A DNA stretch of 64,000 bases. Source: Patescibacteria group bacterium. GTDB taxonomy: Bacteria; Patescibacteriota; Saccharimonadia; Saccharimonadales; 2-12-FULL-41-12. The translations under genes and the position numbers were made by a program. The DNA lies in assembly GCA_038064875.1 (NCBI GenBank), contig JBBTSC010000001.1:571004-635003 (forward strand), read 5' to 3'. The notes under the pieces are model-generated. The model was not told where the DNA came from, made no database searches, and saw only the letters and a program-made list of their open reading frames with translations. This document shows, one piece after another, positions 28,909 through 52,796 of the stretch (the first letter of the stretch is position 1; each line of letters starts with the position of its first letter).

Positions 28909-29373
28909 TTAATTAACATTGAAAACCTTCTCCGCACTCGTATTACCGTTCTCGAGCTTTACTGATATAGTCCAGTCACCTTTTGTCGGGAGATCTTGCT
29001 TTGAGATACCAAAGCCTTCACACGCGTGATAAGAAGTGACTGGAACAAGTGGAGCTGTGCGACTAACAGTCTGAAAACCTTGTTTTCTAAATTCAATAAC
29101 ACAATTCCCCTGCGCAACGCCCTCGACCACCGTCCTCACATAAACCATACCGCCATCTTGGGACACATTGCTGATACTAACTTTGCCCTCTTCTTTGCTA
29201 ACTTCAGGATTTTTTACGTCAGGCAACCCACCTTCATCTTGTTTTTGCTCAGTAATAACACTGTCAGAAGAGGCAACTGGTGCGTTATCTTTTCTGGTAG
29301 AACTATAGGCTACTGCGCCGGCGATAACCGCGCAGATCAGAGGTACGATGACAAAGATAAGTTTTTTTTTCAT
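28909..29373 (-). CDS. small membrane-anchored/secreted protein
   Basis: MKKKLIFVIVPLICAVIAGAVAY anchor followed by a roughly 120 aa beta-rich domain. It lies directly upstream of the 925-aa gene. Confidence 0.5.
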   Translation of the reverse strand: MKKKLIFVIVPLICAVIAGAVAYSSTRKDNAPVASSDSVITEQKQDEGGLPDVKNPEVSKEEGKVSISNVSQDGGMVYVRTVVEGVAQGNCVIEFRKQGFQTVSRTAPLVPVTSYHACEGFGISKQDLPTKGDWTISVKLENGNTSAEKVFNVN

Positions 29374-29457: not shown

Positions 29458-31524
29458 TTAAGGAGTGACGCTGACCGGCCAATAAACACCTGGTTCCGTA
29501 TTAGCCCATGTCTTATTTTCTGCAACGAGGCTAAAGAATTCATTGGCACTATATCCCGCCGTATTTGGTGCTTCTATCCAAAAACCAAAGGTTCCTATGG
29601 CCCCTGGGGCAACAGATGCTTCACTCAAAGTTCCTGGCCTATTACAGCTCAGCCAGGTCGAATCACAAACCGCACTGATTCTATCTCTTGGCCCACTCGT
29701 GGCTACTCGAAGTGGGAATGAGCCATTGTTATACCAAGTTTGATTTCCTGTATTTTTGGCCTTGATGACTACATAAACTCTCTGGCCCTGAGTTAGATTT
29801 GTTGTCGAAGCTGAGGTCGTCTGCTGATCGTCCGTGAAAATATGTTGAGCCGTTGGTTGCCAGCTGTATATTCTAGGGGTTACATTGATTGTCGTTGAAA
29901 GCATCAGGTTACGGCTAAACCATTCTCTGTTTTCGATCAGTAAATGGAAATGTTCTCTGTAGACGCCACCTGCCTCAGGTGCCGTTATGGTGAAAGGAAA
30001 CCGTCCTGTCTCTCCGGGTAATATTGTGTCTGTAGCTACCAGAGTCTTGCTATTATCTGGCTCGGTAACGACTTTGTGGGTAAACGAAACAGTTCTATTA
30101 ACTGCCCGCCAACTACCAGTTGTAGCAAAAGCACTGGGTCTGTCTCTAGGCTGATCAGTGCCCAGAACAACTGGGTTAGTGCCATAGTTACCCCAAGTGT
30201 TGTCACCCTCATTTTTGAGATCAAAATAAGCTTGCTTGGTATCGCCTGACTGCATACTCGTGCTAAACTCAAAATTACCGTCAAATCCTTGTCCTTGGTT
30301 GGTCAAATCTAGTCTATTGAGATTGGCCCTGGGTGCGTAGTAAATATCGCCAACTCTTCTTATATCACCAAGCCTGTCGTAGAGTTGCTGTCCTGGACAA
30401 GAAGTCTGACCAACATTACGATGACCTACGACATTAGGGCCATTTGAGCCTATACCTGAGGGATTAAAATAATACTTTGCAGATTTGAAGGCAATAATAT
30501 TGGCAACGGAATCTATCATACGATCACTTGGACGAACATTACTAAAATCACCGATAGTGGCAATGCCTGTGGTACCTCTATTATTTTGATACGCGTGTGC
30601 CCCTACTACATCTTTCTTTGTATTGTGAGCTACATTTGGGTCAAAGTATCTACCTTGAAAAATATTGCCATTTGAATCAACAACATAGTTGTACCCGATA
30701 TCTCCCCAGTCGTTAGTATATGTGTGAAATTGCCAGACGGCTCTCATGATTGCTGATGAATCACCTTGGCCCGTAACTGTATGGTGCACGACAGCTCGAT
30801 ATAGTCCTTCGTATTCTGCAGGCCAATAGTTCAACTCATTATTTATGCTCTCGTTGCCCCACCATTCTGCTCGGCTAATGATCCTTGGCCCGTCTGATCC
30901 GGCACTCGCAACTTTTGTAATGCCGGTTTTCTCAAGCACTTTTTCTACTATATTTTTCTTTGTTGGGGATGGGCCTCTGGTCGTATCTATCATTTGAATT
31001 GAAGTTTTTGCTAGATCCACTGCAGGAGATGGCTGGCCAGGCTGACCCTCTAACACCACCCTGTATTGTACTTTTTTGATGTTTTCATTGATAGCCAACA
31101 TCGCTCTGACAGGTTTTGAGTCATCTTTACGATCTTGTTGGTTTTCTGAATGTAGCCACTCTGACCAAGATTTGCCATTAAATGTCCTGATCTGTATTTC
31201 TACGCCTTCTCTGTCTTCATTTTGATTCCAAACTATTGCAGTAGCATTGGCATTTTTCTGCTCTGGTTCGAGTTCTTTTGATTCAAAGGTCAATTTTGTA
31301 TCTGTGCTTAGAACACTAGCTTCTTTGGAAACGTTCTGTCCTTCAACAATTCGGCCTTGCGTAACGTCGCTAATATTTGAAGTTATAATTTCTGTTTTTT
31401 GTGGACGCGTACTTAGAAATACTGCAAACACCAGTATAACCAGACAGCTCAAACTAGCAAAAACCTTAGTAGCTTTTTTGTGGGTGCGAAATCTGGTAGA
31501 AATATTTTTTATTTGTTTTTTCAT
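29458..31524 (-). CDS. N-acetylmuramoyl-L-alanine amidase (amidase_2/PGRP type) with N-terminal anchor and two C-terminal Ig-like (NBR1-FW-like) domains
   Basis: Core amidase motifs are IISRAEWWG, AVVHHTV, WGDIGYNYVVDSNGNIFQGR, VGAHAYQNNRGTTGIATIGDF and VVGHRNVGQTSCPG. Two C-terminal repeats of about 120 aa follow (N.G.NTW....PRDR.S....W...PGE...F.F...AP). Confidence 0.8.
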   Translation of the reverse strand: MKKQIKNISTRFRTHKKATKVFASLSCLVILVFAVFLSTRPQKTEIITSNISDVTQGRIVEGQNVSKEASVLSTDTKLTFESKELEPEQKNANATAIVWNQNEDREGVEIQIRTFNGKSWSEWLHSENQQDRKDDSKPVRAMLAINENIKKVQYRVVLEGQPGQPSPAVDLAKTSIQMIDTTRGPSPTKKNIVEKVLEKTGITKVASAGSDGPRIISRAEWWGNESINNELNYWPAEYEGLYRAVVHHTVTGQGDSSAIMRAVWQFHTYTNDWGDIGYNYVVDSNGNIFQGRYFDPNVAHNTKKDVVGAHAYQNNRGTTGIATIGDFSNVRPSDRMIDSVANIIAFKSAKYYFNPSGIGSNGPNVVGHRNVGQTSCPGQQLYDRLGDIRRVGDIYYAPRANLNRLDLTNQGQGFDGNFEFSTSMQSGDTKQAYFDLKNEGDNTWGNYGTNPVVLGTDQPRDRPSAFATTGSWRAVNRTVSFTHKVVTEPDNSKTLVATDTILPGETGRFPFTITAPEAGGVYREHFHLLIENREWFSRNLMLSTTINVTPRIYSWQPTAQHIFTDDQQTTSASTTNLTQGQRVYVVIKAKNTGNQTWYNNGSFPLRVATSGPRDRISAVCDSTWLSCNRPGTLSEASVAPGAIGTFGFWIEAPNTAGYSANEFFSLVAENKTWANTEPGVYWPVSVTP

Positions 31525-31623
31525 GTTTATATTGTGCTAACAACATCATTATATAACTTTTCGCTCTCGTATTAAAGAAAGCCCCTCAACTAAAATTTGC
31601 CAGATACAGAGAATCCATGTTCT

Positions 31624-31652
31624 TTGACAAAATAGCATAATTCTGTCATTAT
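31624..31652 (+). promoter_or_regulatory. sigma70 promoter, leaderless transcript candidate
   Basis: TTGACA (31624-31629), a 17-nt spacer, then TGTCATTAT (extended -10, 31644-31652). ATG 31659 lies 6 nt downstream. Confidence 0.45.
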
Positions 31653-31658
31653 GTGGCT

Positions 31659-32243
31659 ATGAAGAGTTTAGATTCTGGGTCTCCTACTCCAGAAGAGATT
31701 GGCAAATTAACAGCTGAGCAAAAAGCAGTTGTTGCTTCTGAATATCTAAAAGGTGTTGAGCCAGGTTTCCTGCCCCTCCCTTTATTTAAAGAGTTATCTC
31801 GGCTGATGGTGATCAACACTGTTGAGCTAGTACTTTTGCAACCCGAAGATGATATAAGAGTATTACTAACCAAACGACCACCGACAGATCCATGGTGGGC
31901 AAATCAACTTCATATACCTGGCAGTGTGACCCTGCCGACTGACTCCGTTGAGGGTGATGATGATTTCACTGGCACTCTGAATCGTATACTCGAAGATGAG
32001 CTAGCCGGTGCTATAGAAATTGTCGGCAATGTTAACTTTTTAGAGCCACAGAGAAGAATCGGCCCCAGAGGTCACGAGGTAACCACTATCCATTGGGCAG
32101 GAGCTTCTGTCGATGAATCATTGTTGCCGAATTCCGCAAGACTATTAACACTAGAAGACTTGCAGTCTTATCAACCAGAAGCTATCGTTGACGGGACAAT
32201 TCAAACAGTCGAACGGGCTGTCCAAGCCTACGAGAACACTTGA
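31659..32243 (+). CDS. NUDIX-fold-like protein with degenerate Nudix box
   Basis: LLTKRPPTDPWWANQLHIPGSV...GTLNRILEDELAG resembles W.LPGG...REL.EE.G only loosely. The ORF track starts at GTG 31653; ATG 31659 fits the promoter geometry better. Confidence 0.4.
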   Translation: MKSLDSGSPTPEEIGKLTAEQKAVVASEYLKGVEPGFLPLPLFKELSRLMVINTVELVLLQPEDDIRVLLTKRPPTDPWWANQLHIPGSVTLPTDSVEGDDDFTGTLNRILEDELAGAIEIVGNVNFLEPQRRIGPRGHEVTTIHWAGASVDESLLPNSARLLTLEDLQSYQPEAIVDGTIQTVERAVQAYENT

Positions 32244-41520: not shown

Positions 41521-42507
41521 TTATTTGTCTGCTTCAACTTTAAGGTCGTGAGCGACCATCAATTTTACAAGCCCCGGAAAATCAACTTTTCGCTTCCAGC
41601 CAAGGACTTTTTCTGCCTTTGATGGATCACCAAGTAGCAAATCTACCTCTGCAGGACGCATAAATTTAGGATCTTGTTTTACGTATGGCTTCCAGTCGTC
41701 GATACCGATTTCTTTGAACGCAAGATCTAGGAATTCTTCGATAGAATGCGTCTCTCCTGTGGCTAGAACATAATCATCAGGCTCATCCTGTTGCAACATC
41801 AGCCACATGCCTTCTACATAGTCACCAGCATATCCCCAATCTCTCTGTGGCCATAGATCGCCCAGTACTAACTCCTTTTGCTTGCCCAGCTTGATCCGAG
41901 CCACTGCGTTACTGATCTTTCGTGTGACGAATTCTACACCACGTCTGTCACCCTCGTGATTAAATAGTATCCCACAAGATGCGTGTATCCCGTAGCTTTC
42001 GCGGTAGTTCTTGGTTATCCAGTGAGCATAAAGTTTTGCCACGCCGTACGGACTCCTCGGGTGGAAGACGGACTCCTCGTTATAGCCTTTTTCTGGTCGG
42101 TTGTAGTCTAGCCCACCGTACATCTCAGATGTAGATGCTTGGTAAAATCGCACTTTCTTTTCACGCCCAGTCAGACGGATAGCTTCTAGAAAATTAAGCA
42201 CGCCTACCGCAGTAACGTCAGCAGTCAGCTGTGGTGCCTTGAATGAATAACCAACGTGGCTGATTGCTGCCAAGTTGTACACTTCGTCAGGGTTAGATGT
42301 CTCGAGTGCTCGCACCAATGATGAAGTGTCCAGCAGATCTGCTTCTATCAGCTTTACGTAAGGGAATTCTTCTTCGACTTCTCGCTTTTTGGGGTTGTGC
42401 TGTCCGCGGATGATGGCAAATATCTCGTAGTCTTTGCTGTGCAAGAGCTCCGCTAGATGCCCTCCGTCTTGTCCTGTAATTCCTGTAATTAAAGCTGTCT
42501 TGGTCAT
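41521..42507 (-). CDS. gmd: GDP-mannose 4,6-dehydratase
   Basis: ALITGITGQDGGHLAELL, STSEMYG, YGVAKLYAHW, NHEGDRRG: canonical Gmd motifs. Confidence 0.95.
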   Translation of the reverse strand: MTKTALITGITGQDGGHLAELLHSKDYEIFAIIRGQHNPKKREVEEEFPYVKLIEADLLDTSSLVRALETSNPDEVYNLAAISHVGYSFKAPQLTADVTAVGVLNFLEAIRLTGREKKVRFYQASTSEMYGGLDYNRPEKGYNEESVFHPRSPYGVAKLYAHWITKNYRESYGIHASCGILFNHEGDRRGVEFVTRKISNAVARIKLGKQKELVLGDLWPQRDWGYAGDYVEGMWLMLQQDEPDDYVLATGETHSIEEFLDLAFKEIGIDDWKPYVKQDPKFMRPAEVDLLLGDPSKAEKVLGWKRKVDFPGLVKLMVAHDLKVEADK

Positions 42508-42542
42508 TGTTCTCCCTATTTATTATCGAAAGTATTCACCCT

Positions 42543-43850
42543 TTATTTTATAACAATAGTTTTGTCTTCCCAAAATTTAATCCCGATAAGTATGAATACA
42601 CTGGCGACAACTGCCTCGTTGGACCAAATATGCAGGAACATGTTGATCACTATAAGCCCTGCCAGTACAGAGAAAAATATCTCACGCTCTGGTGAGCTTG
42701 ATTTTCTCAGCTCTTGGAACACGAGTGCTAGGAATGCTAGGAATAACAACAGACCGATCACACCTACTTCATAACCAATCTGCACAAAATAGTTTTCGGT
42801 CAATATACCTTTGTTGTGTATCGCCACCAGCCCTGCTGTCCCGGGGCCGTGCCCTGACGGCTGATCTGCTATGCCATCTATCCCCTTTTGCAAGTATGAT
42901 GCATGCAGAGAATTAGAATCTTCTAGCTTGGTGTTCTCGTCACTATGGACCAATATATTCTGCACCACATATTGGTCACGGAGCGCATACGCACCAAAAC
43001 TCAGTATCAGCACCAGACCAATTATTATATATTTGTACTTGTTCAAATATTTTAAGATTTCTTTTTTATGGGTGAGCCCTGAATAGACTGCCAAGGCTAT
43101 CGCTGTAGCCAACCACGCTCCTCTAGAAAATGTCAGGAATAATATAAGAAGATGTAGTAGCAACACTCCGCTGAGCATCATTTTTTTACTAGTTTTCCAG
43201 TTTTTGATCAGTAAATTCACTAACAAGAGTATTGGCAATATTAGAAATGCCCCTAGTGAGTTGGGGTCACGGATAGTCGACATCACTCGTGGTAGATCAG
43301 GCTTGTCGTCTATGAAAAAGGCTGGCTTGACTCCTCGTTCTACCGAGTAGCCAAAGTGCGTCATCACGTCTTTAGGCAATATCCACTGTAGTAGTGCCAC
43401 TACACAGACTATGGTAGATACTATCAGCAGATATTTGATGAAATCCGTCTGAATCTTTTTCTGAGCTACTTTGTTCTTTGCTAGTAGCACCAGATTGTAG
43501 CCGATTATCACATACCAGATTATCCGTGTGTTATATATTGTTGCCAGTAGCCCTGTCGTATTTGGCTGATCTGTAGTCAGTAGCAAAGACAAATGTAGAA
43601 ATGTGTATGACAGTAACAGTGCCCAGAGCATGTAGAACAATCTGTTAGCTTTTTTTGCATATAGCACCAGCCCAGAACCAAATATCAGAATTCCCCAAGC
43701 AAAGATATCCTTACCAATCTTCCACCAATCCAAATGCCCCGTAAAAGTACTCAGCCACTGGCTCAGGAAGATATGGAAAGACATATAGACAAAGAGCCCA
43801 ATCACCGCATATTTATAATAAGTATTCAATTTCTCAATCACTACACCCAT
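42543..43850 (-). CDS. O-antigen ligase/polymerase-family (Wzy_C) membrane protein
   Basis: About 11 TM helices, FSRGAWLATAIALAVY (Wzy_C-like motif), and a periplasmic-type loop with H/R residues. Confidence 0.7.
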   Translation of the reverse strand: MGVVIEKLNTYYKYAVIGLFVYMSFHIFLSQWLSTFTGHLDWWKIGKDIFAWGILIFGSGLVLYAKKANRLFYMLWALLLSYTFLHLSLLLTTDQPNTTGLLATIYNTRIIWYVIIGYNLVLLAKNKVAQKKIQTDFIKYLLIVSTIVCVVALLQWILPKDVMTHFGYSVERGVKPAFFIDDKPDLPRVMSTIRDPNSLGAFLILPILLLVNLLIKNWKTSKKMMLSGVLLLHLLILFLTFSRGAWLATAIALAVYSGLTHKKEILKYLNKYKYIIIGLVLILSFGAYALRDQYVVQNILVHSDENTKLEDSNSLHASYLQKGIDGIADQPSGHGPGTAGLVAIHNKGILTENYFVQIGYEVGVIGLLLFLAFLALVFQELRKSSSPEREIFFSVLAGLIVINMFLHIWSNEAVVASVFILIGIKFWEDKTIVIK

Positions 43851-43878
43851 TATCTCACAATAACTAGTTCAATTGACT

Positions 43879-44370
43879 TTAAAAGTGTGGCTTCCTGGCT
43901 CTATTAGCGCAACTTATTATCAAATATGGATGCTTTGGTTCATTCTCAGGCGCATTTACAATTGAACCCTCTTCTTTACCTTGATCGTTTTTATAAAAAA
44001 CATCACACCTTGAGACATCTTTCGGCAAATTTGTTTCTACTGATACATAGTCAATGTTTCTTGACAGTATTATTTCTGTTGAAACCTGGCACCATAACTT
44101 CCCGTCATCAGATGGCCCTTGTTCTGCCATAAAGCAAGTATTTTTTGTATTCTCTGCTACTCTTCTGTCTCCTATAGTCTTATTGAAGCTATCTACTAAA
44201 GATTTTTTTTCTTTCTCTAGATTTTGGAATTTTCTCTCATCGATTTTGTCCAATACCAGAGTACCCAAAATTGCAAGAATAGATATTGCAAGTATTGTCA
44301 TAAAAATGAAAACTACTCTTCTATCAACTATTTGTTGATTTTTTTTTGTCTTAGTTGATTTTTTCCTCAT
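43879..44370 (-). CDS. small N-terminally anchored 4-Cys protein (paralog of 47269-47795)
   Basis: Lys-rich N-terminus, one TM helix, four Cys, and a C-terminal ISCANRARKPHF. It shares an ATGA overlap with the upstream SGNH gene. Confidence 0.5.
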   Translation of the reverse strand: MRKKSTKTKKNQQIVDRRVVFIFMTILAISILAILGTLVLDKIDERKFQNLEKEKKSLVDSFNKTIGDRRVAENTKNTCFMAEQGPSDDGKLWCQVSTEIILSRNIDYVSVETNLPKDVSRCDVFYKNDQGKEEGSIVNAPENEPKHPYLIISCANRARKPHF

Positions 44371-47177
44371 ATTACTCTTGCCTTTGCTATTTTTATTGCA
44401 GTCACTATTATTATAACAATAGGTATGAGAACTAAGATATAATTATTTTTTTGTACTTCTATTTTATGAGTTTTATTATGTGTGGATGATCCATTATTAA
44501 AATTGTTTATTAAGTTTGAGCTAGCTTGAGGGTCATTAAATAACAGATTTATCCCCTGATCCGTTATTGTGCTGGTCAAACTCGTTGCAAATGAAAGGCC
44601 AGCTACATTAGATATGTCTGCTGAAAATTGTAGAAATTCATCACCTCTGGTGTCAGACAATCTGCTTCCTACTGTCGATGTTTGTTGAGCAGATGAAATT
44701 TGAGGTGGTTCAGAGATGAATCCATCGCAAGCGTCATCTACTCCGTCTTTGTCGTAATCAATGCCTGAATCTGGGACAAAACCACACTTCTCTTGATCAT
44801 CTGACGTATTATTACCATTGATGTCTCCTTCTGCCCCTGTTATGAATATGTGCTGGTAGTACTCTTGAGATTCTCCAGCGATATTCTTTGCGTAAGCATG
44901 GATTTCGTGTGGTCCTGGTAATAATTTGTTTTTTATATCGATTGTTATGGCTAAGTTACCGCTACTGTCTGCGTAAAATGTTCCTAGGTCGACAGGCTTT
45001 GATTGTGCCTCTAGTTTTACAGCCGAGTTTGGCTTAAGCCCATCTAATATTATATTGGTGGATTCTTGTCGGCTGTCTTCAGCTATCATTTGTTTTTGCT
45101 TCATTGCGAGAGGAAATGCCTGTGTTGATTCTGCGTTCTTTGATTTAATATAATCTGTGGTTTCAGCCCCAAAATAAGAAGTTGTGGGCTCAGGAATCTT
45201 ACCTTTCTTTGCATCACACACCGCATGATCTGGTTGTGCTGGGCATGTTACAAAAGACGCGGGGTCATTATTCGTTATCTGCAGAATTCGATCTCTAATA
45301 AGTGGTTGAGCATTTTGGTTGGGGTGAAAGGACTCATTGCCAAGACCTAACCTCTCCTGAACTATCACTTTACCCCCAGAATACCCACTTACCCAAACGC
45401 CTTTGTCATCACCAAAAGTTACGCCATTTACAACCATCTGTGAATCTGGCACGCCACTGCAAAGGTTCCTAGTCTGTAGAGTATCCTCTATATCTAGGTA
45501 ATAGACACCTGCGTCTGTGGCTGCAGATCGAATAACTTGGTTCATGTACTTTACACTGTGATGAACAAATTCGCGCTCTTGGTCATTGAGATGCACATTG
45601 TTACCACAGTTTCCGTCCTCACCTCGCACAAATTGTGGATAGCCCATAACGTAGATCTTTGTCTCACCATCGGTTTTATCTTTTAGGGTTTCATATGTTT
45701 CTTTTAAGATTTTATATTGATCTGCAATCTCTCTGGCAACACCAGCTCTGACTGTTGGATTATCTGCATACTTACAAGTGTCTGGTACAAGCGCCTTATA
45801 GTCATTTGTTACACAAGCGCTTAGTTTTTGCAAGAAATCAACGTCATTGCCACCAATAGATATAGTGACAAAAGAAGGCTTCTGCCCTTCAAAAGACTTA
45901 ATCTGCACTTTACTGCCAGCTATATTACTGTTTGTTTTAGGATACTGTATTTTTTTCTCTATATTGTCGGTTTCTGCACCACTGCAGGCAACGCTGTGAA
46001 ATTCTTTATTGTCTAGGAACTGACTCAGAAGATATGGGTAGCTTCTTTTGCTCTGATGGCATTTGTTTACATCCGTATCTGTACCTTCCTCATACCAACT
46101 ATTGCCGTCCATCTCGCCTTCTCCGCTAGCAAATGAGTCCCCCATAGCGATATAGCTGGTTGACTCTGGCACATAACCTGCCGTATTCAGTATCACTTTC
46201 TTGCTAATTCGAACTTTAGACGCAGGATTATAATCAGTCATTATTCCATAAATCGACTTGTCGTTGTCTGCAAACCTGATACCGCTCAAGCCCCAGAAAT
46301 TAGTGAATTGTGACTTCACTGTAGGCCTAATATCTTTAGGGTTTTTACATCCTGTGGCTACGTTATTGTAAGCTTTGATCTGTTTCACCGTGCAACCGTT
46401 TAAGTCATATATGTTTAGTGGTCCACCCTCGAAATTACTGACTATGACCGTGTTGCCGTCATTACTTATTCCCATCTGTGGAGTTGGGTCATAGCCTTGC
46501 CCATAATTGTAGGTTTGTGTAGAAAATAAAAGCAATTCCTCTGTATCAACATTTATCCTGACGAAGCCAACAAAAGGAACCTCTGCCACTATATACTTAC
46601 CGTTTGGAGAAAAGTTAAAAGAATTATATCTAAATGGAATTGTTTGATTTTGGTCATTTTTGAAGACATTTGAAGGAGATGTCACTTCATAAGTTCCCTC
46701 AAGTGGGTTGCTTGAGTTAGCGGCTGTAAATGTGCCAATTGACGACAAGCTATCCTCTATGGCAAAAGATAGTCCGTTTTGAATTCCGCGAACAACTATA
46801 ACTTTACTACTTTTAGGAATTCCTATGACACCTGCTGATCCCTTTATCTTGTACGCATATCCAGCCTCAACATATCCTCCACCCACACCACTAATGCCAC
46901 AAATGTCTACTGACAATAATCTCGGGTTTTTGCTAGGCTTATTGTCCTTATCGGTATAACTGTAGTACTGCCAAGGTGAAGTCACGCAAGTTCTTGGTGT
47001 TTTAACATCTTCGCTTGTCGCATCTCGACCTACAGTGAGTCCTGGATTCGCACTTATCCAAGAGTTGGTTTCTGCTACTACACTTGTTTTGTCAGACTGA
47101 AGCAAAAAGAAACTTAGCAGAATAAGCAAACTTGCTAGGCACAAAGTTTTGATTTTTAGTTTTCCTGCAATTTTCAC
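44367..47177 (-). CDS. large secreted SGNH/GDSL hydrolase with PD40/TolB-like N-terminal region and C-terminal TM anchor
   Basis: Signal peptide; SPNGKYIV / SNDGNTVIV PD40-like strands; GDSL block YIAMGDSFASGEG; block III SIGGNDV; block V ESFHPN. There is an Asp-rich Ca-binding-like DYDKDGVDDACD and a terminal YILVLIPIVIIIVTAIKIA helix. Confidence 0.7.
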   Translation of the reverse strand: MKIAGKLKIKTLCLASLLILLSFFLLQSDKTSVVAETNSWISANPGLTVGRDATSEDVKTPRTCVTSPWQYYSYTDKDNKPSKNPRLLSVDICGISGVGGGYVEAGYAYKIKGSAGVIGIPKSSKVIVVRGIQNGLSFAIEDSLSSIGTFTAANSSNPLEGTYEVTSPSNVFKNDQNQTIPFRYNSFNFSPNGKYIVAEVPFVGFVRINVDTEELLLFSTQTYNYGQGYDPTPQMGISNDGNTVIVSNFEGGPLNIYDLNGCTVKQIKAYNNVATGCKNPKDIRPTVKSQFTNFWGLSGIRFADNDKSIYGIMTDYNPASKVRISKKVILNTAGYVPESTSYIAMGDSFASGEGEMDGNSWYEEGTDTDVNKCHQSKRSYPYLLSQFLDNKEFHSVACSGAETDNIEKKIQYPKTNSNIAGSKVQIKSFEGQKPSFVTISIGGNDVDFLQKLSACVTNDYKALVPDTCKYADNPTVRAGVAREIADQYKILKETYETLKDKTDGETKIYVMGYPQFVRGEDGNCGNNVHLNDQEREFVHHSVKYMNQVIRSAATDAGVYYLDIEDTLQTRNLCSGVPDSQMVVNGVTFGDDKGVWVSGYSGGKVIVQERLGLGNESFHPNQNAQPLIRDRILQITNNDPASFVTCPAQPDHAVCDAKKGKIPEPTTSYFGAETTDYIKSKNAESTQAFPLAMKQKQMIAEDSRQESTNIILDGLKPNSAVKLEAQSKPVDLGTFYADSSGNLAITIDIKNKLLPGPHEIHAYAKNIAGESQEYYQHIFITGAEGDINGNNTSDDQEKCGFVPDSGIDYDKDGVDDACDGFISEPPQISSAQQTSTVGSRLSDTRGDEFLQFSADISNVAGLSFATSLTSTITDQGINLLFNDPQASSNLINNFNNGSSTHNKTHKIEVQKNNYILVLIPIVIIIVTAIKIAKARVI

Positions 47178-47252
47178 ACCTAACCCCGCAATTGTCTATA
47201 GGGTCAATTATACTATCTGGTCAGCGTTTTCTCCTAGACATTTACACGCTTA

Positions 47253-47261
47253 TGCTACAAT
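47253..47261 (+). promoter_or_regulatory. extended -10 promoter (TGCTACAAT), leaderless candidate
   Basis: TGCTACAAT is followed by 7 nt and then ATG 47269. Confidence 0.4.
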
Positions 47262-47268
47262 TTTATTG

Positions 47269-47795
47269 ATGGCAAAAAAAAGCAAAATAGTAGCAAAAAG
47301 TTTTCCTTTTGGTTTCTTGTTCTATTAACTATTATCCTTCTTGTCCTCGTACTTAAGGCTGGTTCTGGGTATATAGCAAACACCAACGACAAATCAAAGT
47401 TTAAAAAAGTTGAACAAGGTGTTCTAGCTGTTAGAAATAATCTCGAAAAGAATCGAACTCAGCCTGCTACTGTAGATAGGTCTTGCCAACAAGCTGTTGA
47501 GAAATATGGAGGTGGATATTGGGTGTGTTCAAGTGGAATAAATAGCGCAAACCATACATCTCTTGATGTATTCAACTCAGATCTGCAGAATTTTAGAAAT
47601 TCGATATTGGGATCGGCTCATTTTCATTCAGAAAAAATTATAGAGGAAAATAATGATGATTCACAAAAACATGTACGTTATTCTTATTATTCAGTAGCTA
47701 CCAATAAAGAGTGCGGGTTAACCGCGATTTATTCTGATGCCCAGAAAGTAATCTCTTTCGGATGTCAAATGAGGGTTAGCAAGCCGTTATTTTAA
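47269..47795 (+). pseudogene. anchored 4-Cys protein gene interrupted by a frameshift in an A8 tract (or expressed by slippage)
   Basis: ATG 47269 reads MAKK into the A8 run at 47274-47281 and stops about 20 codons after the ATG. The -1 frame is open from 47238 to 47795 with no ATG/GTG/TTG before 47523. That frame encodes KKKQNSSKKFSFWFLVLLTIILLVLVL..., a Lys-rich stretch plus a TM helix, then a domain paralogous to 43879-44370. Confidence 0.5.
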
Positions 47796-47868
47796 TTTGG
47801 GGCTCTAGCTTAAATATACAAAAAGAGGTTATGAATAAATATTTGAACACTTGCTCTATAATTAGAGC

Positions 47869-48963
47869 ATGTCGAAGCATGTTGTTATTGATGCACGGAT
47901 ACGGAAAGCCTCTAGCGGACGGCCTATTGAGCGACTTCTGGACAATATCGAGTCGCTGGATACGGAGAACAAATATACTATTTTGCTATCAAAGGGCGAC
48001 AACTGGCGAGCAAAGGCAGATAATTTCAGCGTACGGATCGTCAATTACAAACAATTCTCTCTAAATCCTCTGGAGCAAATCGGCTTTGCGTGGTTACTCT
48101 ACAAGCTGAAGCCTGATGTTGCTTTCTTTTCTATGACGCAGTATCCTCTGCTGTATTTTGGCAAGATAGTTGTCTTTACCCACGACTTGTCGATGTTCCG
48201 ATGGGCGCATCAGGGTAATTCAAACAAATTTGTCCACGGCATCAAAATGCTGGGCTACAAACTGCTCTTTTGGGCGGGGCATAAAAAAGCCAGCAAGATC
48301 ATCGTGCCTACCAAATTCGTAGAGCAAGATCTCATACAGTACCAGCCATTTACCAAAGACAAAATTGTCCAAATATATGAGGCTGTGGATTTGCCAAAGC
48401 AATTTTCTCCCAAAAAGCCGGCTATCCAGGCAAAGAAATTTATATTTTTTGTGGGCAATGCTTTTCCGCACAAAAATCTCTACCGTCTGATAGACGCCTT
48501 CGCGCTAATAAAAGACAAATATCCAGAACTCAGCCTGATCCTTGCGGGCAAGGAAGATTATTATTACAAAAACATCAAAAAGTACGTAGCCCAGAACAAT
48601 ATTAAAAACATAGAAATCACCGGATTTGTTACTGACTCAGAGCTTCATTGGCTCTACCAAAATGCTGAATTCTTTATCTACCCGTCTCTTTCTGAAGGAT
48701 TTGGCATACCACCCCTTGAGGCCATGGCCAACGACTGTGCCGTCGCGACCAGCAATGCTTCTTGTATACCAGAGGTCTGCGGAGACGCCGCCGAATACTT
48801 TGACCCAAATAGTGAGAACTCTATCGCCGGAAGTATCGAGAAGCTGATGGAAAGCCCAAGAACACGAACAGAACTGATCTCTAAAGGTCAAAAACAAATC
48901 AAAAAGTACTCGTGGACCAAGATGTCTGAGGGAATAGTCAACACCATCCAAAAGCTTCTCTAA
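47869..48963 (+). CDS. glycosyltransferase family 4 (mannosyl/rhamnosyltransferase-like)
   Basis: C-terminal PSLSEGFGIPPLEAMANDCAVATSNASCIPEVCGDAAEYFDP (EX7E). TATAAT (47857-47862) lies 6 nt before the ATG. Confidence 0.85.
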   Translation: MSKHVVIDARIRKASSGRPIERLLDNIESLDTENKYTILLSKGDNWRAKADNFSVRIVNYKQFSLNPLEQIGFAWLLYKLKPDVAFFSMTQYPLLYFGKIVVFTHDLSMFRWAHQGNSNKFVHGIKMLGYKLLFWAGHKKASKIIVPTKFVEQDLIQYQPFTKDKIVQIYEAVDLPKQFSPKKPAIQAKKFIFFVGNAFPHKNLYRLIDAFALIKDKYPELSLILAGKEDYYYKNIKKYVAQNNIKNIEITGFVTDSELHWLYQNAEFFIYPSLSEGFGIPPLEAMANDCAVATSNASCIPEVCGDAAEYFDPNSENSIAGSIEKLMESPRTRTELISKGQKQIKKYSWTKMSEGIVNTIQKLL

Positions 48964-49010
48964 ATTAACCCTGGTGATATCTTGCTTATGGTTTATAATT
49001 AAATACTAGA

Positions 49011-50603
49011 ATGAGGTGGTATAACCCAATCGCGCAGAACAAATCTGCAAAGAAGGACGAATCCGGCTACAGTCTTGTGGAGCTGGTGATAGGTCTAACT
49101 ATCTTTGCCATGGTCGCCCTAGCACTAATAGGACTGTTTACTGCGCTGGTGCAAAGCTCTCTGCTAATAAAGCGTAAATCTGTGGCGCTAACACTAGCCA
49201 CCAACCAAATGGAATACTTAAAATCTCTTCCTTATAACAGCCTGGTTATTGCTGGTGGGAGTATCTATGGCACCGCGCCTCTCCCTGCCAATACATACAA
49301 TACGGTCAATGGAGTAACTTACCGCACCAATACTAGCATCAACTATGTCGACGATGCCTATGATGGCTGTGGATCATATGGAACACCAGCCCTGAAAGCC
49401 CTCTACTGCAAAAACCAACCAGCGCCAACAGGAGCACCAGCAACCGACACCAACCCAGCCGACTACAAGATAGTTCATGTCGTGGTCTATAACAGCGCCA
49501 ACGTCCCGTACGCAGAGGTCGATACCCAAATATCGGCCCGGGTAGCAGAGACCGCAAGTACTACGGGAGCGCTATTTGTCACGGTGATCGACGACAACGG
49601 CAATCCTGTTAGTGGCGCGAATATCAACGTCGTGAACTCAACTCTAACACCGAACGTTAATCTCAACGACTCTTCTGATGCCAACGGAGTGGCAATATTT
49701 TATAACCTACCACCAGATACCACAGGATACGACTACACTGTCACTGCATCCAAAAGTGGCTATTCGACTCTGAGCACAATAAAGCCATTTGGATCACTAA
49801 CCCCTACGTATCCAAGCCAAAATATTTTCTCCCAGCTGTCGTCTTATGTGACCCTGGTCATAAAACCTATGGTCACCAACAGCCTGATTGTTGAAGCCAC
49901 AGATACTTCCGGCAATCCGATAGCGAGTTTGCGAGTAAGCGCCAAAGGTGGGTACAAAAAATACACTTCCACAACCAACACCGAATATTACTATAATAAC
50001 TTTGATCCGACTGATGTCAGAGCCACAACTGGTGGTGATGGAGTGGCAACCTTCTCTAGCTTGACACCTGGTGAGTATATCTTCTGTGACGGTAGCGGTA
50101 GTGGCTGTAGAATCGGCAATAACAACTATTATCTAGTGGCTGCATTGCCGTATAGTGGGTCAAACTCATTTAACCCAGTAAATGTACCGTCTGTCCCCAT
50201 TGGATCAACACCTAACCCTGTATTCAACTACAGCGGTAATGACTACGTCCAAAAAGTCCGTTTGATGTTCTCAACTGACTCTTCTTTCCCAAGCATATCG
50301 ACCATCACACCAGACGAAGCATCTATCGCAAACGATAATTTGAGCGCCTTTGAATTCCAAATAGACGGCAAGGGTATCCCTTGCTCTGCTTCTGCTGGGG
50401 CTTGTGCAACCACTGTAAGAATACTTCAAGGTGGATCTACGTACACCGCTTCTTGTACTGGTACAGCTGACACCCATATGGATTGCACTGTGAACATGTC
50501 TGGGGCAACCGCAGGATTAACCCAGCTCCAGATAGTGGTGGGATCAAAAACCCTAACTGTTCCTGCTGGTTCTATGATGGGAGGCATCAATGTCACTCCT
50601 TAG
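49011..50603 (+). CDS. large type IV pilin-like protein (prepilin N-terminus + two carboxypeptidase-regulatory-like beta-sandwich domains)
   Basis: Prepilin motif KDESG/YSLVELVIGLTIFAMVALALIGLF (Gly-1, Glu+5). The CarboxypepD_reg-like segments are FVTVIDDNGNPVSGANINV...YTVTASKSGY and IVEATDTSGNPIASLRVSA...GVATFSSLTPGEYIF. Confidence 0.75.
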   Translation: MRWYNPIAQNKSAKKDESGYSLVELVIGLTIFAMVALALIGLFTALVQSSLLIKRKSVALTLATNQMEYLKSLPYNSLVIAGGSIYGTAPLPANTYNTVNGVTYRTNTSINYVDDAYDGCGSYGTPALKALYCKNQPAPTGAPATDTNPADYKIVHVVVYNSANVPYAEVDTQISARVAETASTTGALFVTVIDDNGNPVSGANINVVNSTLTPNVNLNDSSDANGVAIFYNLPPDTTGYDYTVTASKSGYSTLSTIKPFGSLTPTYPSQNIFSQLSSYVTLVIKPMVTNSLIVEATDTSGNPIASLRVSAKGGYKKYTSTTNTEYYYNNFDPTDVRATTGGDGVATFSSLTPGEYIFCDGSGSGCRIGNNNYYLVAALPYSGSNSFNPVNVPSVPIGSTPNPVFNYSGNDYVQKVRLMFSTDSSFPSISTITPDEASIANDNLSAFEFQIDGKGIPCSASAGACATTVRILQGGSTYTASCTGTADTHMDCTVNMSGATAGLTQLQIVVGSKTLTVPAGSMMGGINVTP

Positions 50604-51207
50604 AACTAACAAGATACGTAAGGTCGAGGCTGGATTCTCGCTGATAGAATTAGTAATTGCGATGACTTTGATCGGTATTATCACTACTATTCTCTACACT
50701 GTATTTAACAACAACTTCAGTCAATTTATGGCGTTGCAGACAAACAATGTCAAACACGGCGAGCTATCTACACAGAGCCAGCGCATGGGCAGTCTGATCC
50801 GCGGACTGACTGATATCACAGCTGCCACATCGTCTGAACTAACATTTTACGCATACCTATCGCCACGGGATGACACAGTTTCTTTGATTCGGTACTACAA
50901 GAGCACCGACGGAACTAAGTTGCATGCAGACGTAACGCCGATGTCAGCGAATCCTCCAACAGGCACACCGATCACTTCAGATCAAAAAACGATCACCCTG
51001 CTTGATAACTTCTACACTGTAAGTGGAGTTAACTTATTTACTTATCTAGATTCAGCTGGCAACACCCTGACCACACCAATAACTGACCTGCGAACAATCA
51101 AGGGCGTCAAAACAACCCTGGCAGTAGCAAACACGGTACCTGTAATAACTGGCAACGAGACCGTGTCTGTCCAAGTGTCACTTCGTAACAGAAAGAGTAA
51201 TCTATGA
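50590..51207 (+). CDS. type IV minor pilin / pseudopilin
   Basis: Prepilin cleavage/methylation motif VEAG/FSLIELVIAMTLIGIITTILY. It overlaps the upstream gene. Confidence 0.75.
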   Translation: MSLLRTNKIRKVEAGFSLIELVIAMTLIGIITTILYTVFNNNFSQFMALQTNNVKHGELSTQSQRMGSLIRGLTDITAATSSELTFYAYLSPRDDTVSLIRYYKSTDGTKLHADVTPMSANPPTGTPITSDQKTITLLDNFYTVSGVNLFTYLDSAGNTLTTPITDLRTIKGVKTTLAVANTVPVITGNETVSVQVSLRNRKSNL

Positions 51208-52796
51208 AAAATATAAAAAGGCTTCTTGAGGATTCAACTACCGGATTCATCATCCCGACAGTTCTGAGCATGATCTTGGCACTGACTATAATTTCTACCT
51301 CAGCTGCGCTGATAATTGACTCAAACTTGGGTATTGGAGATAACAACATAAAGCGTCAGCAGGCGTTCAATATTGCTGAGGCCGGGCTGAATTATTACCT
51401 GTGGCATTTGAGCCATAACGGTACAGACTACAAAGACGGGCAATCAACGCCTACTACGCCTGATGCAACCTTGGGCTACGGCCCCTATGTACATGATTAT
51501 TATGACGACAATGCTAAAAAAGTAGGCACATACACTCTATGGATCAAACCCCAGGGCGGGGGCTCTACGGTGGTAAAAATTCGCTCAATCGGTGAAGAGC
51601 TAAAATCGCATACTAAAAGAACTTTGGAGGCAGAGATAGGTTCGCCTTCATACGCCAGCTATAGCGTAACTTCAGACAGCGCCCTTTGGTTTGGGGCAAA
51701 CGAGTCCGCAACTGGCCCTGTTCACTCAAATGTTGGTGTTCGTATGGACGGAGCGAGTAGCTCTGACGTCACTAGCGCAAATGCTACATATGTGCCTCCT
51801 GGTGCAAATGGTGGAGACGGAGCGAGCCATCCAGGCGTTTGGTGTCATAGCTCAATCACAACTCCTGTAAACTGTGCGACGAGATCAAAGGCTGACTGGC
51901 AATACCCAGTTCCTTCGATTGATTTCAACCAAGTTACCACAGGTCTATGTACCATGAAGCGTACCGCCTTTGCCGACTACGCAGCCACTTCTGCACTAGC
52001 AACTCAAGCTAATGCTTGTACCCAAGTGCCGACAACCAGAACTAACGCATATTTGCCACAAAGAGCTACCAACGGATCTTACAACCAGACTCGGGGCTGG
52101 GAGATAGATCTTAACAGCAACAATACGTATAACCTGTACCAAGTGAATGGTGAGAACGATCAAGCAGCCAACTACACCGCCGCACTGACACGCGTGCTTA
52201 CTGCTTCAAATATTGCTATCCCTCCTTCTGGGGTCATATTTGCTGAAGACAACGTCTGGGTACGGACAACTGCTGGATTCAACGGAAGAGTAACTATCGG
52301 AGCAGGACGTTTGGCGACTAATTCAAATGCTCAGATTATGATCGCTGACGATATGCAATATGCTGTCAAAAACGGAACGATTGCTATTGGCCTAGTAGCA
52401 GAAGGTAACGTGTCAATTGCCCCATACGCACCTCCACAGTCTGGATCGTTTACTTTCGAAGTCAATGCAGCTATCGTCTCACAGAGCGGTAATGTTCTAT
52501 ATCCTAGCACCTATAGAACCAACTCTAGTCGTTGCACACTAGGCTGGGTGAATAGCAACCAAATCTTCTCTTTCTACGGCTCTGTGGCAACACGTCAGAC
52601 ATGGACATGGACATGGATCAGAGGAAGTTCTTGTGCTAACGCTGTGTATAGTGCGTCAGATGGAGGCTATATCTCTGGCATCTCACACAACAATACTGAG
52701 TATGATTACAGCCTATCTTATACCCCTCCTCCAAGTTTCCCAATAACTAGTAGTTACAATATCTTGTCTTGGCGTGAAGTGTTAACGACGCCTTAA
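51204..52796 (+). CDS. PilX-like pilus-associated protein (large)
   Basis: Hydrophobic N-terminus TGFIIPTVLSMILALTIISTSAAL lacking Glu+5, followed by QQAFNIAEAGLNYYLWHL, which is typical of the PilX N-terminal domain. It shares an ATGA overlap with the upstream pilin gene. Confidence 0.55.
   Translation: MKNIKRLLEDSTTGFIIPTVLSMILALTIISTSAALIIDSNLGIGDNNIKRQQAFNIAEAGLNYYLWHLSHNGTDYKDGQSTPTTPDATLGYGPYVHDYYDDNAKKVGTYTLWIKPQGGGSTVVKIRSIGEELKSHTKRTLEAEIGSPSYASYSVTSDSALWFGANESATGPVHSNVGVRMDGASSSDVTSANATYVPPGANGGDGASHPGVWCHSSITTPVNCATRSKADWQYPVPSIDFNQVTTGLCTMKRTAFADYAATSALATQANACTQVPTTRTNAYLPQRATNGSYNQTRGWEIDLNSNNTYNLYQVNGENDQAANYTAALTRVLTASNIAIPPSGVIFAEDNVWVRTTAGFNGRVTIGAGRLATNSNAQIMIADDMQYAVKNGTIAIGLVAEGNVSIAPYAPPQSGSFTFEVNAAIVSQSGNVLYPSTYRTNSSRCTLGWVNSNQIFSFYGSVATRQTWTWTWIRGSSCANAVYSASDGGYISGISHNNTEYDYSLSYTPPPSFPITSSYNILSWREVLTTP

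What the first reader, a model, noticed from the sequence alone, without database searches (positions are those of the whole stretch)
47238..47795. Poly(A)8 frameshift separating the start codon from the body of an anchored 4-Cys protein gene
ATG 47269 sits 7 nt after an extended -10 box, which fits a leaderless start. It reads MAKK into the A8 run at 47274-47281 and terminates about 20 codons after the ATG. The -1 frame is open from 47238 to 47795 but contains no ATG, GTG or TTG until 47523. It nevertheless encodes a textbook Lys-rich N-terminus and TM helix (KKKQNSSKKFSFWFLVLLTIILLVLVL) followed by the conserved domain. One extra A (A9) or a -1 slip on the A-run would fuse everything into a protein of about 175 aa. 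This could be a phase-variable surface protein, programmed transcriptional or ribosomal slippage, a young pseudogene, or a homopolymer sequencing error.
Basis: seen in the sequence. Interest (0 to 1): 0.55.

Follow-up and report, generated by a model that had tools for sequence, protein, structure and literature searches.

The report
Real one-base frameshift in surface-protein gene
In this groundwater Patescibacteria strain, a run of nine A's just after the start codon of a small membrane-anchored protein gene has lost one A and knocked the gene out of frame; this is a genuine, recent mutation of a well-known, ordinary kind, not a sequencing error and not a programmed recoding signal.

Summary
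ATG 47269 reads MAKK into an A8 run (47274-47281) and stops after 19 codons. The -1 frame carries the rest of a 175-aa protein.

An A9 version of the same gene exists. It encodes a protein identical to the predicted fusion, in at least 8 other assemblies representing at least 5 haplotypes (97.4-99.6% nucleotide identity to the window).

The A8 allele was recovered in at least 3 separate assemblies of Hainich well H51 groundwater: separate Illumina libraries and two assemblers, all 100% identical to the window. A sequencing error is therefore very unlikely.

Across about 31 kb aligned between the A8 strain and one A9 strain, this is the only frame-breaking indel and the only homopolymer length difference. 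The gene carries no other change, so the mutation is recent.

All 8 distant homologues are single ORFs with the same basic N-terminus, TM helix and four invariant Cys. Their A-runs are short or interrupted, and no frameshift-stimulating RNA structure is present. Programmed recoding is therefore not supported.

The best reading is a lineage-specific A9-to-A8 slippage mutation giving an OFF or leaky allele. Reversible phase variation is not excluded, but there is no evidence for it at the consensus level.

The parts
47253..47261 (+). Extended -10 promoter element TGCTACAAT, ending 7 nt before the ATG (leaderless-type start; inferred)
   Evidence: Sequence. A -10-like hexamer lies 5-9 nt upstream of the start in 11/53 window genes, against 5.6% of all ATGs. 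The homologue locus L021 has TATAAT + 7 nt + ATG. The simple two-hexamer scan did not list it because there is no -35 at 16-18 nt.
47269..47271 (+). ATG start codon of the ancestral 175-aa gene
   Evidence: In the A9 contigs shown (L001-L007, L012) the gene called from this ATG translates to P0001.
47274..47281 (+). A8 homopolymer run (A9 in all other strains): site of the 1-bp deletion. It also forms an A_AAA_AAA slippery heptamer in the ATG frame.
   Evidence: It is the only indel in L002-L007 compared with the window.
47269..47328 (+). Truncated reading frame of the A8 allele: MAKKSKIVAKSFPFGFLFY, then stop
47301..47354 (+). Coding region (-1 frame) for the hydrophobic TM / signal-anchor helix FSFWFLVLLTIILLVLVL (residues 12-29 of the 175-aa protein)
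   Evidence: hydropathy; helix in the AlphaFold model; conserved in all homologues.
47358..47795 (+). Coding region (-1 frame) for the extracytoplasmic domain with four invariant Cys (C73, C87, C149, C166), the KYGGGYW motif and the C-terminal KPLF, plus the stop codon
   Evidence: Alignment A1; models with pLDDT 82 and 75; weak Mog1/PsbP/DUF1795/DcrB-like fold matches.
47523..47795 (+). 90-aa GTG ORF that gene callers report on A8 contigs. It is an annotation artefact of the frameshift: it lacks the anchor and C73. The SD-like GGAGGTG before it simply encodes the conserved Gly-Gly-Gly.
   Evidence: P0012 is in the same 90% cluster as P0001.
44367..47177 (-). Divergently transcribed 936-aa GDSL/SGNH-hydrolase-like surface protein. 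The pairing is conserved in the 38%-identical homologue locus.
   Evidence: Pfam PF13472/PF00657; synteny in L021-L023.

Best explanation
This is a genuine DNA-level, lineage-specific one-base deletion (A9 to A8) caused by replication slippage in a lysine-codon homopolymer just after the start codon.

The gene is a small orphan. It encodes an N-terminally membrane-anchored protein that probably contains disulfides and faces the cell surface. It lies in the genome of a groundwater Patescibacteria bacterium (the family's one named member is a Saccharibacteria protein) from Hainich well H51.

In this strain, ribosomes starting at ATG 47269 (probably on a leaderless mRNA) make a 19-residue peptide and stop. 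The anchor and ectodomain are no longer translated in frame, so the allele is OFF or strongly reduced.

A small amount of full-length protein may still arise by unprogrammed slippage. RNA polymerase could insert one extra A in the A8 run, or the ribosome could slip -1 on A_AAA_AAA. Either event gives exactly the ancestral 175-aa sequence.

Shown: the allele is real and reproducible, A9 is ancestral and in frame, the change is recent, and the protein family is real.

Inferred: loss of function, the leaderless start, leaky rescue, and the surface location.
For: 1. The A9 allele encodes P0001, which is 100% identical to the predicted fusion. It occurs in 7 contigs from 7 samples, and an eighth is inferred from the 215-aa product P0013, whose DNA was not fetched. 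At least 5 haplotypes carry A9. The window haplotype has 12 private SNPs in 2860 bp, so A8 is the derived state.
2. A8 was found in ERZ1292627 (Hain_H51_01um_R2, 239-kb contig, 16x coverage), ERZ1292641 (Hain_H51_02um_R1) and the Logan assembly of ERR3858130. All are 100% identical to the window. The Hain_ contig names match the Hainich study's separate NextSeq 500 libraries, each assembled on its own with metaSPAdes (PMC8672522).
3. Across about 31 kb aligned to the A9 strain GCA_964349495.1, the tract is the only frame-breaking indel and the only homopolymer length difference. The T9 runs at 29362 and 44339 and the T8 run at 44203 are identical.
4. The gene plus its upstream spacer shows 0-1 SNP against the A9 strains, so there has been no secondary decay.
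5. All homologues (P0002-5, P0008-11) are single ORFs of 161-184 aa with a basic N-terminus, a TM helix and 4 invariant Cys.
6. Sense-strand A7-A9 runs are a general compositional feature here: 36 of the 41 runs of 7 or more A/T in the window, including runs in dnaA, dnaN and yidC. This is the only one out of frame.
7. Such 5' poly(A) frameshift alleles are documented. L. monocytogenes inlA has A7 in frame and A6 giving an 8-aa product (PMC2831843).
Against: - Raw reads could not be inspected, so a minority A9 subpopulation in H51 (switching) cannot be excluded.
- All A8 assemblies appear to come from one well (shown for two by the contig names) and probably one campaign, so they are independent as libraries but not as populations.
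- The absence of any other lesion fits a recent null allele, but it fits a maintained ON/OFF switch equally well.
- Loss of function is inferred, not measured.
- A8 is close to the run length at which RNA polymerase slippage becomes efficient (PMC5009743 and PMC5574713), so expression could be higher than 'off'.
Confidence: 0.74

Rival explanations
1. Contingency locus. The A-run is a selected, reversible ON/OFF switch (slipped-strand phase variation) for a surface protein, like Mycoplasma hominis vaa. The H51 population is currently in the OFF phase.
For: - The tract lies at codons 2-5 of a probably surface-anchored protein, next to cell-envelope glycan and pilin genes.
- ON (A9) and OFF (A8) alleles both exist in nature with no other lesion.
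- M. hominis vaa switches at a 5' poly-A run of 8 (ON) versus 7 or 9 (OFF), at 1e-3 to 1e-4 (PMC524362).
- 5' poly(A) tracts have been proposed as general switches (PMC2831843).
Against: - Allele and haplotype are perfectly linked. Every A8 contig is 100% identical to the window and every A9 contig is a different haplotype. No strain background shows both lengths.
- The tract is not conserved in the family: A5 in P0002 loci and A3GA7 in P0004 loci.
- A8/A9 runs are equally present in housekeeping genes and are invariant between strains. The tract looks like a by-product of AAA codon usage for a Lys-rich N-terminus.
Confidence: 0.16
2. Programmed recoding. The A8 gene is normally expressed through efficient -1 ribosomal frameshifting on A_AAA_AAA or programmed transcriptional slippage, as in dnaX, mxiE or tssM.
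For: - A perfect X_XXY_YYZ heptamer lies in the ATG frame, and a -1 slip gives exactly the ancestral protein (sequence).
- RNA polymerase inserts single A's in A-runs at rates that rise exponentially with run length (PMC5574713).
- An A11 run rescues C. rodentium tssM at 20-25% (PMC4256274).
Against: - The out-of-frame arrangement is confined to one haplotype. All other strains and all homologues are in frame.
- No downstream RNA structure is present: MFE -17.8 kcal/mol against a shuffle mean of -19.7, z = +0.68.
- There is no room for an upstream SD-like stimulator, because the run starts 5 nt after the probable 5' end.
- A8 is shorter than the 9-11 runs of the documented cases.
Confidence: 0.04
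3. Homopolymer sequencing or assembly error. The real genome has A9.
For: Homopolymers are the classic site of indel errors. All A8 assemblies appear to come from one sequencing project and platform.
Against: - A8 is reproduced in at least 3 assemblies from separate libraries and by two assemblers (metaSPAdes and Logan).
- Illumina chemistry has low indel error at 8-9-mers.
- T9 and A8 runs elsewhere in the same contigs are in frame and identical to those in other strains.
- There are no other indels in coding sequence across about 31 kb.
Confidence: 0.05

Closest known systems
Listeria monocytogenes inlA 5' poly(A) tract alleles (A7 in frame; A6 gives an 8-aa truncated InlA) - Orsi, Bowen & Wiedmann 2010, PMC2831843
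   Same: A poly(A) run a few codons after the start of a surface-protein gene. Natural strains carry either the in-frame allele or the allele one A shorter, which gives a very short peptide. Some lineages have an interrupted run instead, as the homologues here do (A3GA7, A5).
   Different: Here the run is A9/A8 in an uncultivated Patescibacteria bacterium. No reversion frequency has been measured, the protein is an orphan of unknown function, and the mRNA is probably leaderless.
Mycoplasma hominis vaa adhesin phase variation (5' poly-A: 8 = ON, 7 or 9 = OFF; 1e-3 to 1e-4) - Zhang & Wise 1997, as cited in PMC524362
   Same: A small-genome, host-dependent, AT-rich bacterium with a poly-A run of 8-9 in the 5' end of a membrane-anchored surface protein gene, where a change of one A toggles the frame.
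   Different: Switching within clones was demonstrated for vaa. Here each allele is tied to its own haplotype, and no within-population variation could be examined.
Adventitious transcriptional slippage that rescues frameshifted genes at poly(A) runs (Buchnera/Blochmannia; C. rodentium tssM A11) - PMC5009743, PMC5574713, PMC4256274
   Same: A frameshifted gene whose frame would be restored by RNA polymerase adding one A in a homopolymeric A run.
   Different: The run is only 8 nt, so expected slippage is lower. The frameshift is not conserved between strains, and no RNA data are available.
dnaX-type programmed -1 ribosomal frameshifting (A_AAA_AAG plus an upstream SD-like element and a downstream hairpin); own knowledge and PMC5009743
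   Same: An A_AAA_AAA heptamer in the zero frame permits tandem -1 re-pairing of tRNA-Lys.
   Different: No stimulators are present. The site is at codons 3-4, directly after initiation. It is not conserved.

Membership tests
Homopolymeric-tract phase-variable (contingency) gene | Mononucleotide run inside the 5' coding region, so that a change of one base switches the reading frame | tested here: met
   A8 at codons 2-5. A9 gives the 175-aa ORF and A8 gives a 19-aa peptide.
Homopolymeric-tract phase-variable (contingency) gene | Tract-length polymorphism among close relatives, with the ORF otherwise intact | tested here: met
   A8 in the window and L008-L011; A9 in L001-L007 and L012. There are 0-1 SNPs across 47178-47795.
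Homopolymeric-tract phase-variable (contingency) gene | Reversible switching: both lengths on the same strain background or within one population | tested here: inconclusive
   At the consensus level each allele is confined to its own haplotype. Read-level heterogeneity cannot be tested with these tools.
Homopolymeric-tract phase-variable (contingency) gene | Tract maintained or enriched specifically in the variable gene, rather than being a generic compositional feature | tested here: not met
   Homologues have A5 or A3GA7. In the window, 36 of 41 runs of 7 or more are sense-strand A in coding sequence, including dnaA, dnaN and yidC. The A9/T9 runs at 29362 and 44339 are invariant between strains.
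Programmed -1 ribosomal frameshift site | Slippery heptamer X_XXY_YYZ in the zero frame | tested here: met
   A_AAA_AAA at 47274-47280 in the ATG frame.
Programmed -1 ribosomal frameshift site | Stimulatory element (downstream hairpin or pseudoknot, or upstream SD-like sequence) | tested here: not met
   Folding 47269-47400 gives z = +0.68 against shuffles, and 156/200 shuffles fold at least as well. Only 5 nt lie between the ATG and the run.
Programmed recoding (ribosomal or transcriptional) | Out-of-frame arrangement conserved among orthologues | tested here: not met
   All other strains are A9 and in frame, and all homologues are single ORFs.
Programmed transcriptional slippage | Heterogeneous run length in the mRNA relative to the DNA | not testable with these tools
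   Needs RNA-seq or RT-PCR amplicons. Hainich metatranscriptomes exist (PMC12960796 abstract).
Frameshifted pseudogene | ORF disrupted relative to intact orthologues | tested here: met
Frameshifted pseudogene | Further degenerative changes (extra stops, indels, relaxed constraint) | tested here: not met
   There is no other difference from the A9 alleles in 527 bp. If it is a pseudogene, it is very young.
Orphan anchored 4-Cys protein family (P0001-P0005, P0008-P0011; no Pfam or NCBIfam model) | 161-184 aa; basic N-terminus plus one TM helix; four invariant Cys; F45 and K79 invariant | tested here: met
   Alignment A1; HMMER E-values from 4e-22 to 1e-4; no Pfam or NCBIfam hit.
Mog1/PsbP/DUF1795(Eag)/DcrB-like fold | Structural similarity at fold level (TM-score 0.5 or above, significant E-value) | tested here: inconclusive

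The most novel reading that the evidence does not exclude
The A9/A8 run is a working contingency switch. A groundwater Patescibacteria (probably Saccharibacteria-type) episymbiont would reversibly turn a disulfide-bonded, membrane-anchored surface protein on and off by slipped-strand mispairing. The protein is paired with a large GDSL/SGNH-hydrolase-like surface protein in an envelope-glycan/pilus locus. Low-level transcriptional slippage on a leaderless mRNA would act as a second, non-genetic layer. I found no description of homopolymer ON/OFF phase variation in CPR bacteria in two literature checks, so this may be the first.
Probability: 0.13. Interest if true: 0.5.

Novelty: new member of a known kind. 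Interest (0 to 1): 0.25.

Why it matters
Practically, gene callers turn this locus into a spurious 90-aa protein (P0012). The correct annotation is a frameshifted allele of a 175-aa anchored protein, and the A9 allele should serve as the reference.

Biologically, it gives a clean natural ON/OFF pair for an uncharacterised, very rare surface-protein family. That family has only about 9 clusters among billions of proteins and no relative in 185,579 GTDB species representatives. The organisms cannot be genetically manipulated, so strains with and without the protein could be compared in situ.

It also shows that lysine-codon A-runs are mutational weak points in these AT-rich, reduced genomes. If read-level data showed switching, it would extend simple-repeat phase variation to CPR bacteria. 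As it stands, the phenomenon is ordinary.

Tried and rejected
- Exact-pattern scans across the tract with a variable gap found nothing in GTDB genome contigs or JGI metagenome contigs.
- Profile-based locus searches found no relative in GTDB representatives and only the already known P0002 contig in JGI.
- Pfam and NCBIfam gave no family for the protein.
- Rfam at E <= 1 over 46500-48500 gave only a sub-threshold lysM-Actino hit inside the glycosyltransferase gene.
- RNA folding downstream of the run showed no structure.
- No paralogue was found in the window by tblastn.
- The zero-SNP status of the gene looked like special nucleotide-level conservation. I rejected this because SNPs between strains are strongly mosaic, with several other SNP-free blocks of about 1 kb.
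- An in-frame ATT at 47265 could in principle start the -1 frame. I rejected this because it lies only 3 nt after the -10 box, upstream of the expected transcription start, and has no SD sequence.
- The internal GTG 47523 is not a real start. It would remove the anchor and C73, and no homologue starts there.
- An accession-number literature search for the A9 samples returned nothing, so I do not know where they come from.

Full report
**1. Observation**

- TGCTACAAT (47253-47261) is an extended -10 motif.
- Seven bases later comes ATG 47269, then GCA, then eight A's (47274-47281).
- The ATG frame reads MAKKSKIVAKSFPFGFLFY and stops at 47326-47328.
- The -1 frame is open from 47238 to the TAA at 47793-47795. 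Its first ATG/GTG/TTG is GTG 47523.
- That frame encodes a Lys-rich segment, a strongly hydrophobic helix (Kyte-Doolittle maximum 2.65 over residues 11-29 of the fused protein) and a domain with four Cys.

**2. The fused gene exists elsewhere**

I built the A9 fusion by hand and searched the 5.8-billion-cluster protein collection.
- It returned P0001, 175 aa, 100% identical over the full length.
- P0001 is encoded on contigs from 7 samples: GCA_964349495.1, SRR33557406, ERZ27247817, ERZ27247828, ERR3094302, SRR22388217 and ERR3094294.
- In all seven the run is A9 and the surrounding 120 bases are identical to the window.
- An eighth A9 contig is represented by P0013, the same gene called from an upstream TTG.
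- These contigs are 97.4-99.6% identical to the window. In L002-L007 the single gap in the alignment is the missing A.

**3. The A8 allele is reproducible**

The exact-protein look-up for A9 cannot find A8 contigs, so I looked up the 90-aa GTG product that a gene caller would report on an A8 contig.
- It is on record on 5 contigs, and 3 were shown: ERZ1292627 (Hain_H51_01um_R2, 239 kb, coverage 16), ERZ1292641 (Hain_H51_02um_R1) and the Logan assembly of ERR3858130.
- All three carry A8 and are 100% identical to the window over 1.7-20 kb.
- The contig names match the Hainich Critical Zone Exploratory data set: groundwater filter fractions sequenced as separate libraries on an Illumina NextSeq 500 (2x150). 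Each library was assembled on its own with metaSPAdes 3.13 (PMC8672522).
- So A8 is the consensus in separate libraries and under two different assemblers.
- In the same contigs, the T9 runs at 29362 and 44339 and the A8/T8 runs in dnaA, yidC and other genes are in frame.
- A sequencing or assembly artefact is therefore very unlikely.

**4. How special is the difference?**

I aligned about 31 kb of the A9 strain GCA_964349495.1 (L001 + L026) to the window.
- The alignment has about 700 SNPs but very few indels.
- One cluster of indels lies in the spacer at 31581-31671.
- A compensated +1/-1 pair, 7 nt apart, lies in the Wzy_C-like gene (43145/43152).
- The only other indel is the A-run.
- No other homopolymer differs in length.
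- The gene and its upstream spacer (47178-47795) show 0-1 SNP against every A9 contig. This is not special conservation, because SNPs are mosaic and other SNP-free blocks of about 1 kb exist.
- It does mean the frameshifted copy has not decayed further, so the event is recent or reversible.
- In a shared 2860-bp region the window haplotype has 12 private SNPs, while A9 occurs on at least 5 distinct haplotypes. With in-frame homologues as outgroup, A9 is ancestral and A8 derived.

**5. The protein**

- A full HMMER scan of 1.84 billion representatives found only 7 credible relatives. A profile search added one more.
- All are 161-184 aa. All have a basic N-terminus, one TM helix and four invariant Cys at C73, C87, C149 and C166.
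- The closest relatives also share a KYGGGYW motif and a C-terminal KPLF.
- One relative is annotated as a hypothetical protein of a Candidatus Saccharibacteria genome.
- The window's own proteins are on record as 'MAG: Patescibacteria group bacterium'.
- There is no Pfam or NCBIfam family.
- No relative was found in 185,579 GTDB species representatives.
- The AlphaFold models (pLDDT 82 full length, 75 ectodomain) show a long N-terminal helix followed by a beta-beta-alpha-beta-beta-beta-beta domain.
- Foldseek against the PDB repeatedly ranks EagT6/SciW/PA94 (DUF1795), PsbP and DcrB first. TM-scores are only 0.30-0.47 and E-values are 1.6e-3 or worse, so the fold assignment is tentative.
- The gene lies in a cell-envelope neighbourhood near oriC. 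This includes rhamnose biosynthesis genes, glycosyltransferases, an ABC-2 exporter, a Wzy_C-like protein and pilin-like proteins.
- It is divergently paired with a 936-aa GDSL/SGNH-hydrolase-like protein. That pairing is kept in the 38%-identical homologue locus.
- I infer an extracytoplasmic, disulfide-stabilised accessory protein, possibly working with that hydrolase. This is inference only.

**6. Start site**

- A -10-like hexamer 5-9 nt upstream of the start codon occurs at 11 of 53 window genes, against 5.6% of all ATGs.
- The P0002 homologue has TATAAT + 7 nt + ATG.
This is inferred, not shown.

**7. Mechanism and rivals**

Programmed recoding is not supported.
- The out-of-frame state is confined to one haplotype.
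- Homologues have short or interrupted runs: A5, and A3GA7.
- The 132 nt from the ATG fold no better than shuffled sequence (z = +0.68).

Unprogrammed rescue remains plausible.
- Single-A insertions by RNA polymerase dominate in A/T runs and rise exponentially with run length (PMC5574713).
- Such slippage is efficient at 9 A/T (PMC5009743).
- A -1 slip on A_AAA_AAA would give the same protein.

True phase variation, as in M. hominis vaa (PMC524362), cannot be excluded without reads. Three points argue against a selected switch:
- allele and haplotype are strictly linked;
- equally long runs in neighbouring and housekeeping genes do not vary;
- the run is not conserved in the family.

The closest documented parallel is the inlA 5' poly(A) A7/A6 polymorphism of L. 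monocytogenes (PMC2831843).

**8. Verdict**

This is a real, recent, strain-specific A9-to-A8 frameshift allele of an orphan anchored surface-protein gene. It is a new example of a well-known kind of event. It is useful for annotation and as a natural knock-out, but not surprising. I rate interest at 0.25.

Noticed in passing
window: starts at 17745(-), 20150(-), 29373(-), 39445(-), 47869(+), 57726(+) and others: Many genes have a TATAAT-like -10 box 5-9 nt upstream of the ATG and no Shine-Dalgarno sequence: 11/53 genes against 5.6% of all ATGs. This suggests leaderless mRNAs are common in this Patescibacteria genome.
   Followed up: partly
window 43145-43152, in the Wzy_C-like gene 42543-43850(-): Compared with strain GCA_964349495.1 there is a +1/-1 indel pair 7 nt apart. 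It is a compensated frameshift that changes 2-3 codons.
   Followed up: no
window 42269-52795 and 18909-39379, against L001/L002/L026: Divergence between strains is strongly mosaic. SNP-free blocks of about 1 kb alternate with blocks of more than 7-12% divergence (for example, 37 SNPs in 43501-43800). This suggests frequent recombination among co-existing strains.
   Followed up: partly
window 31581-31671: The spacer between the divergent genes 29458-31524(-) and 31653-32243(+) carries 7 small indels relative to three other strains. It is the only indel-rich spot in 31 kb.
   Followed up: no
window 28909-29373(-), run at 29362-29370; also 43879-44370(-), run at 44339-44347: Two other small genes have A9 runs (sense strand) at codons 2 and 8. 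The first also has TGnTAAAAT + 6 nt + ATG. The architecture is the same as the finding, but both are in frame and invariant between strains, so they serve as internal controls.
   Followed up: yes
window 44367-47177(-) and L021 2089-4983(-): A large GDSL/SGNH-hydrolase-like protein (936 or 964 aa) with a C-terminal hydrophobic tail is divergently paired with the 4-Cys protein gene in two species that are only 38% identical in the small protein. This hints at a functional link.
   Followed up: partly
L032 (ERZ1292641) against window 29466: A low-coverage (3x) Hainich contig differs from the window by 12 SNPs and one 1-bp deletion near the end of gene 29458-31524(-). This could be a second minor strain in well H51 or low-coverage noise.
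   Followed up: no
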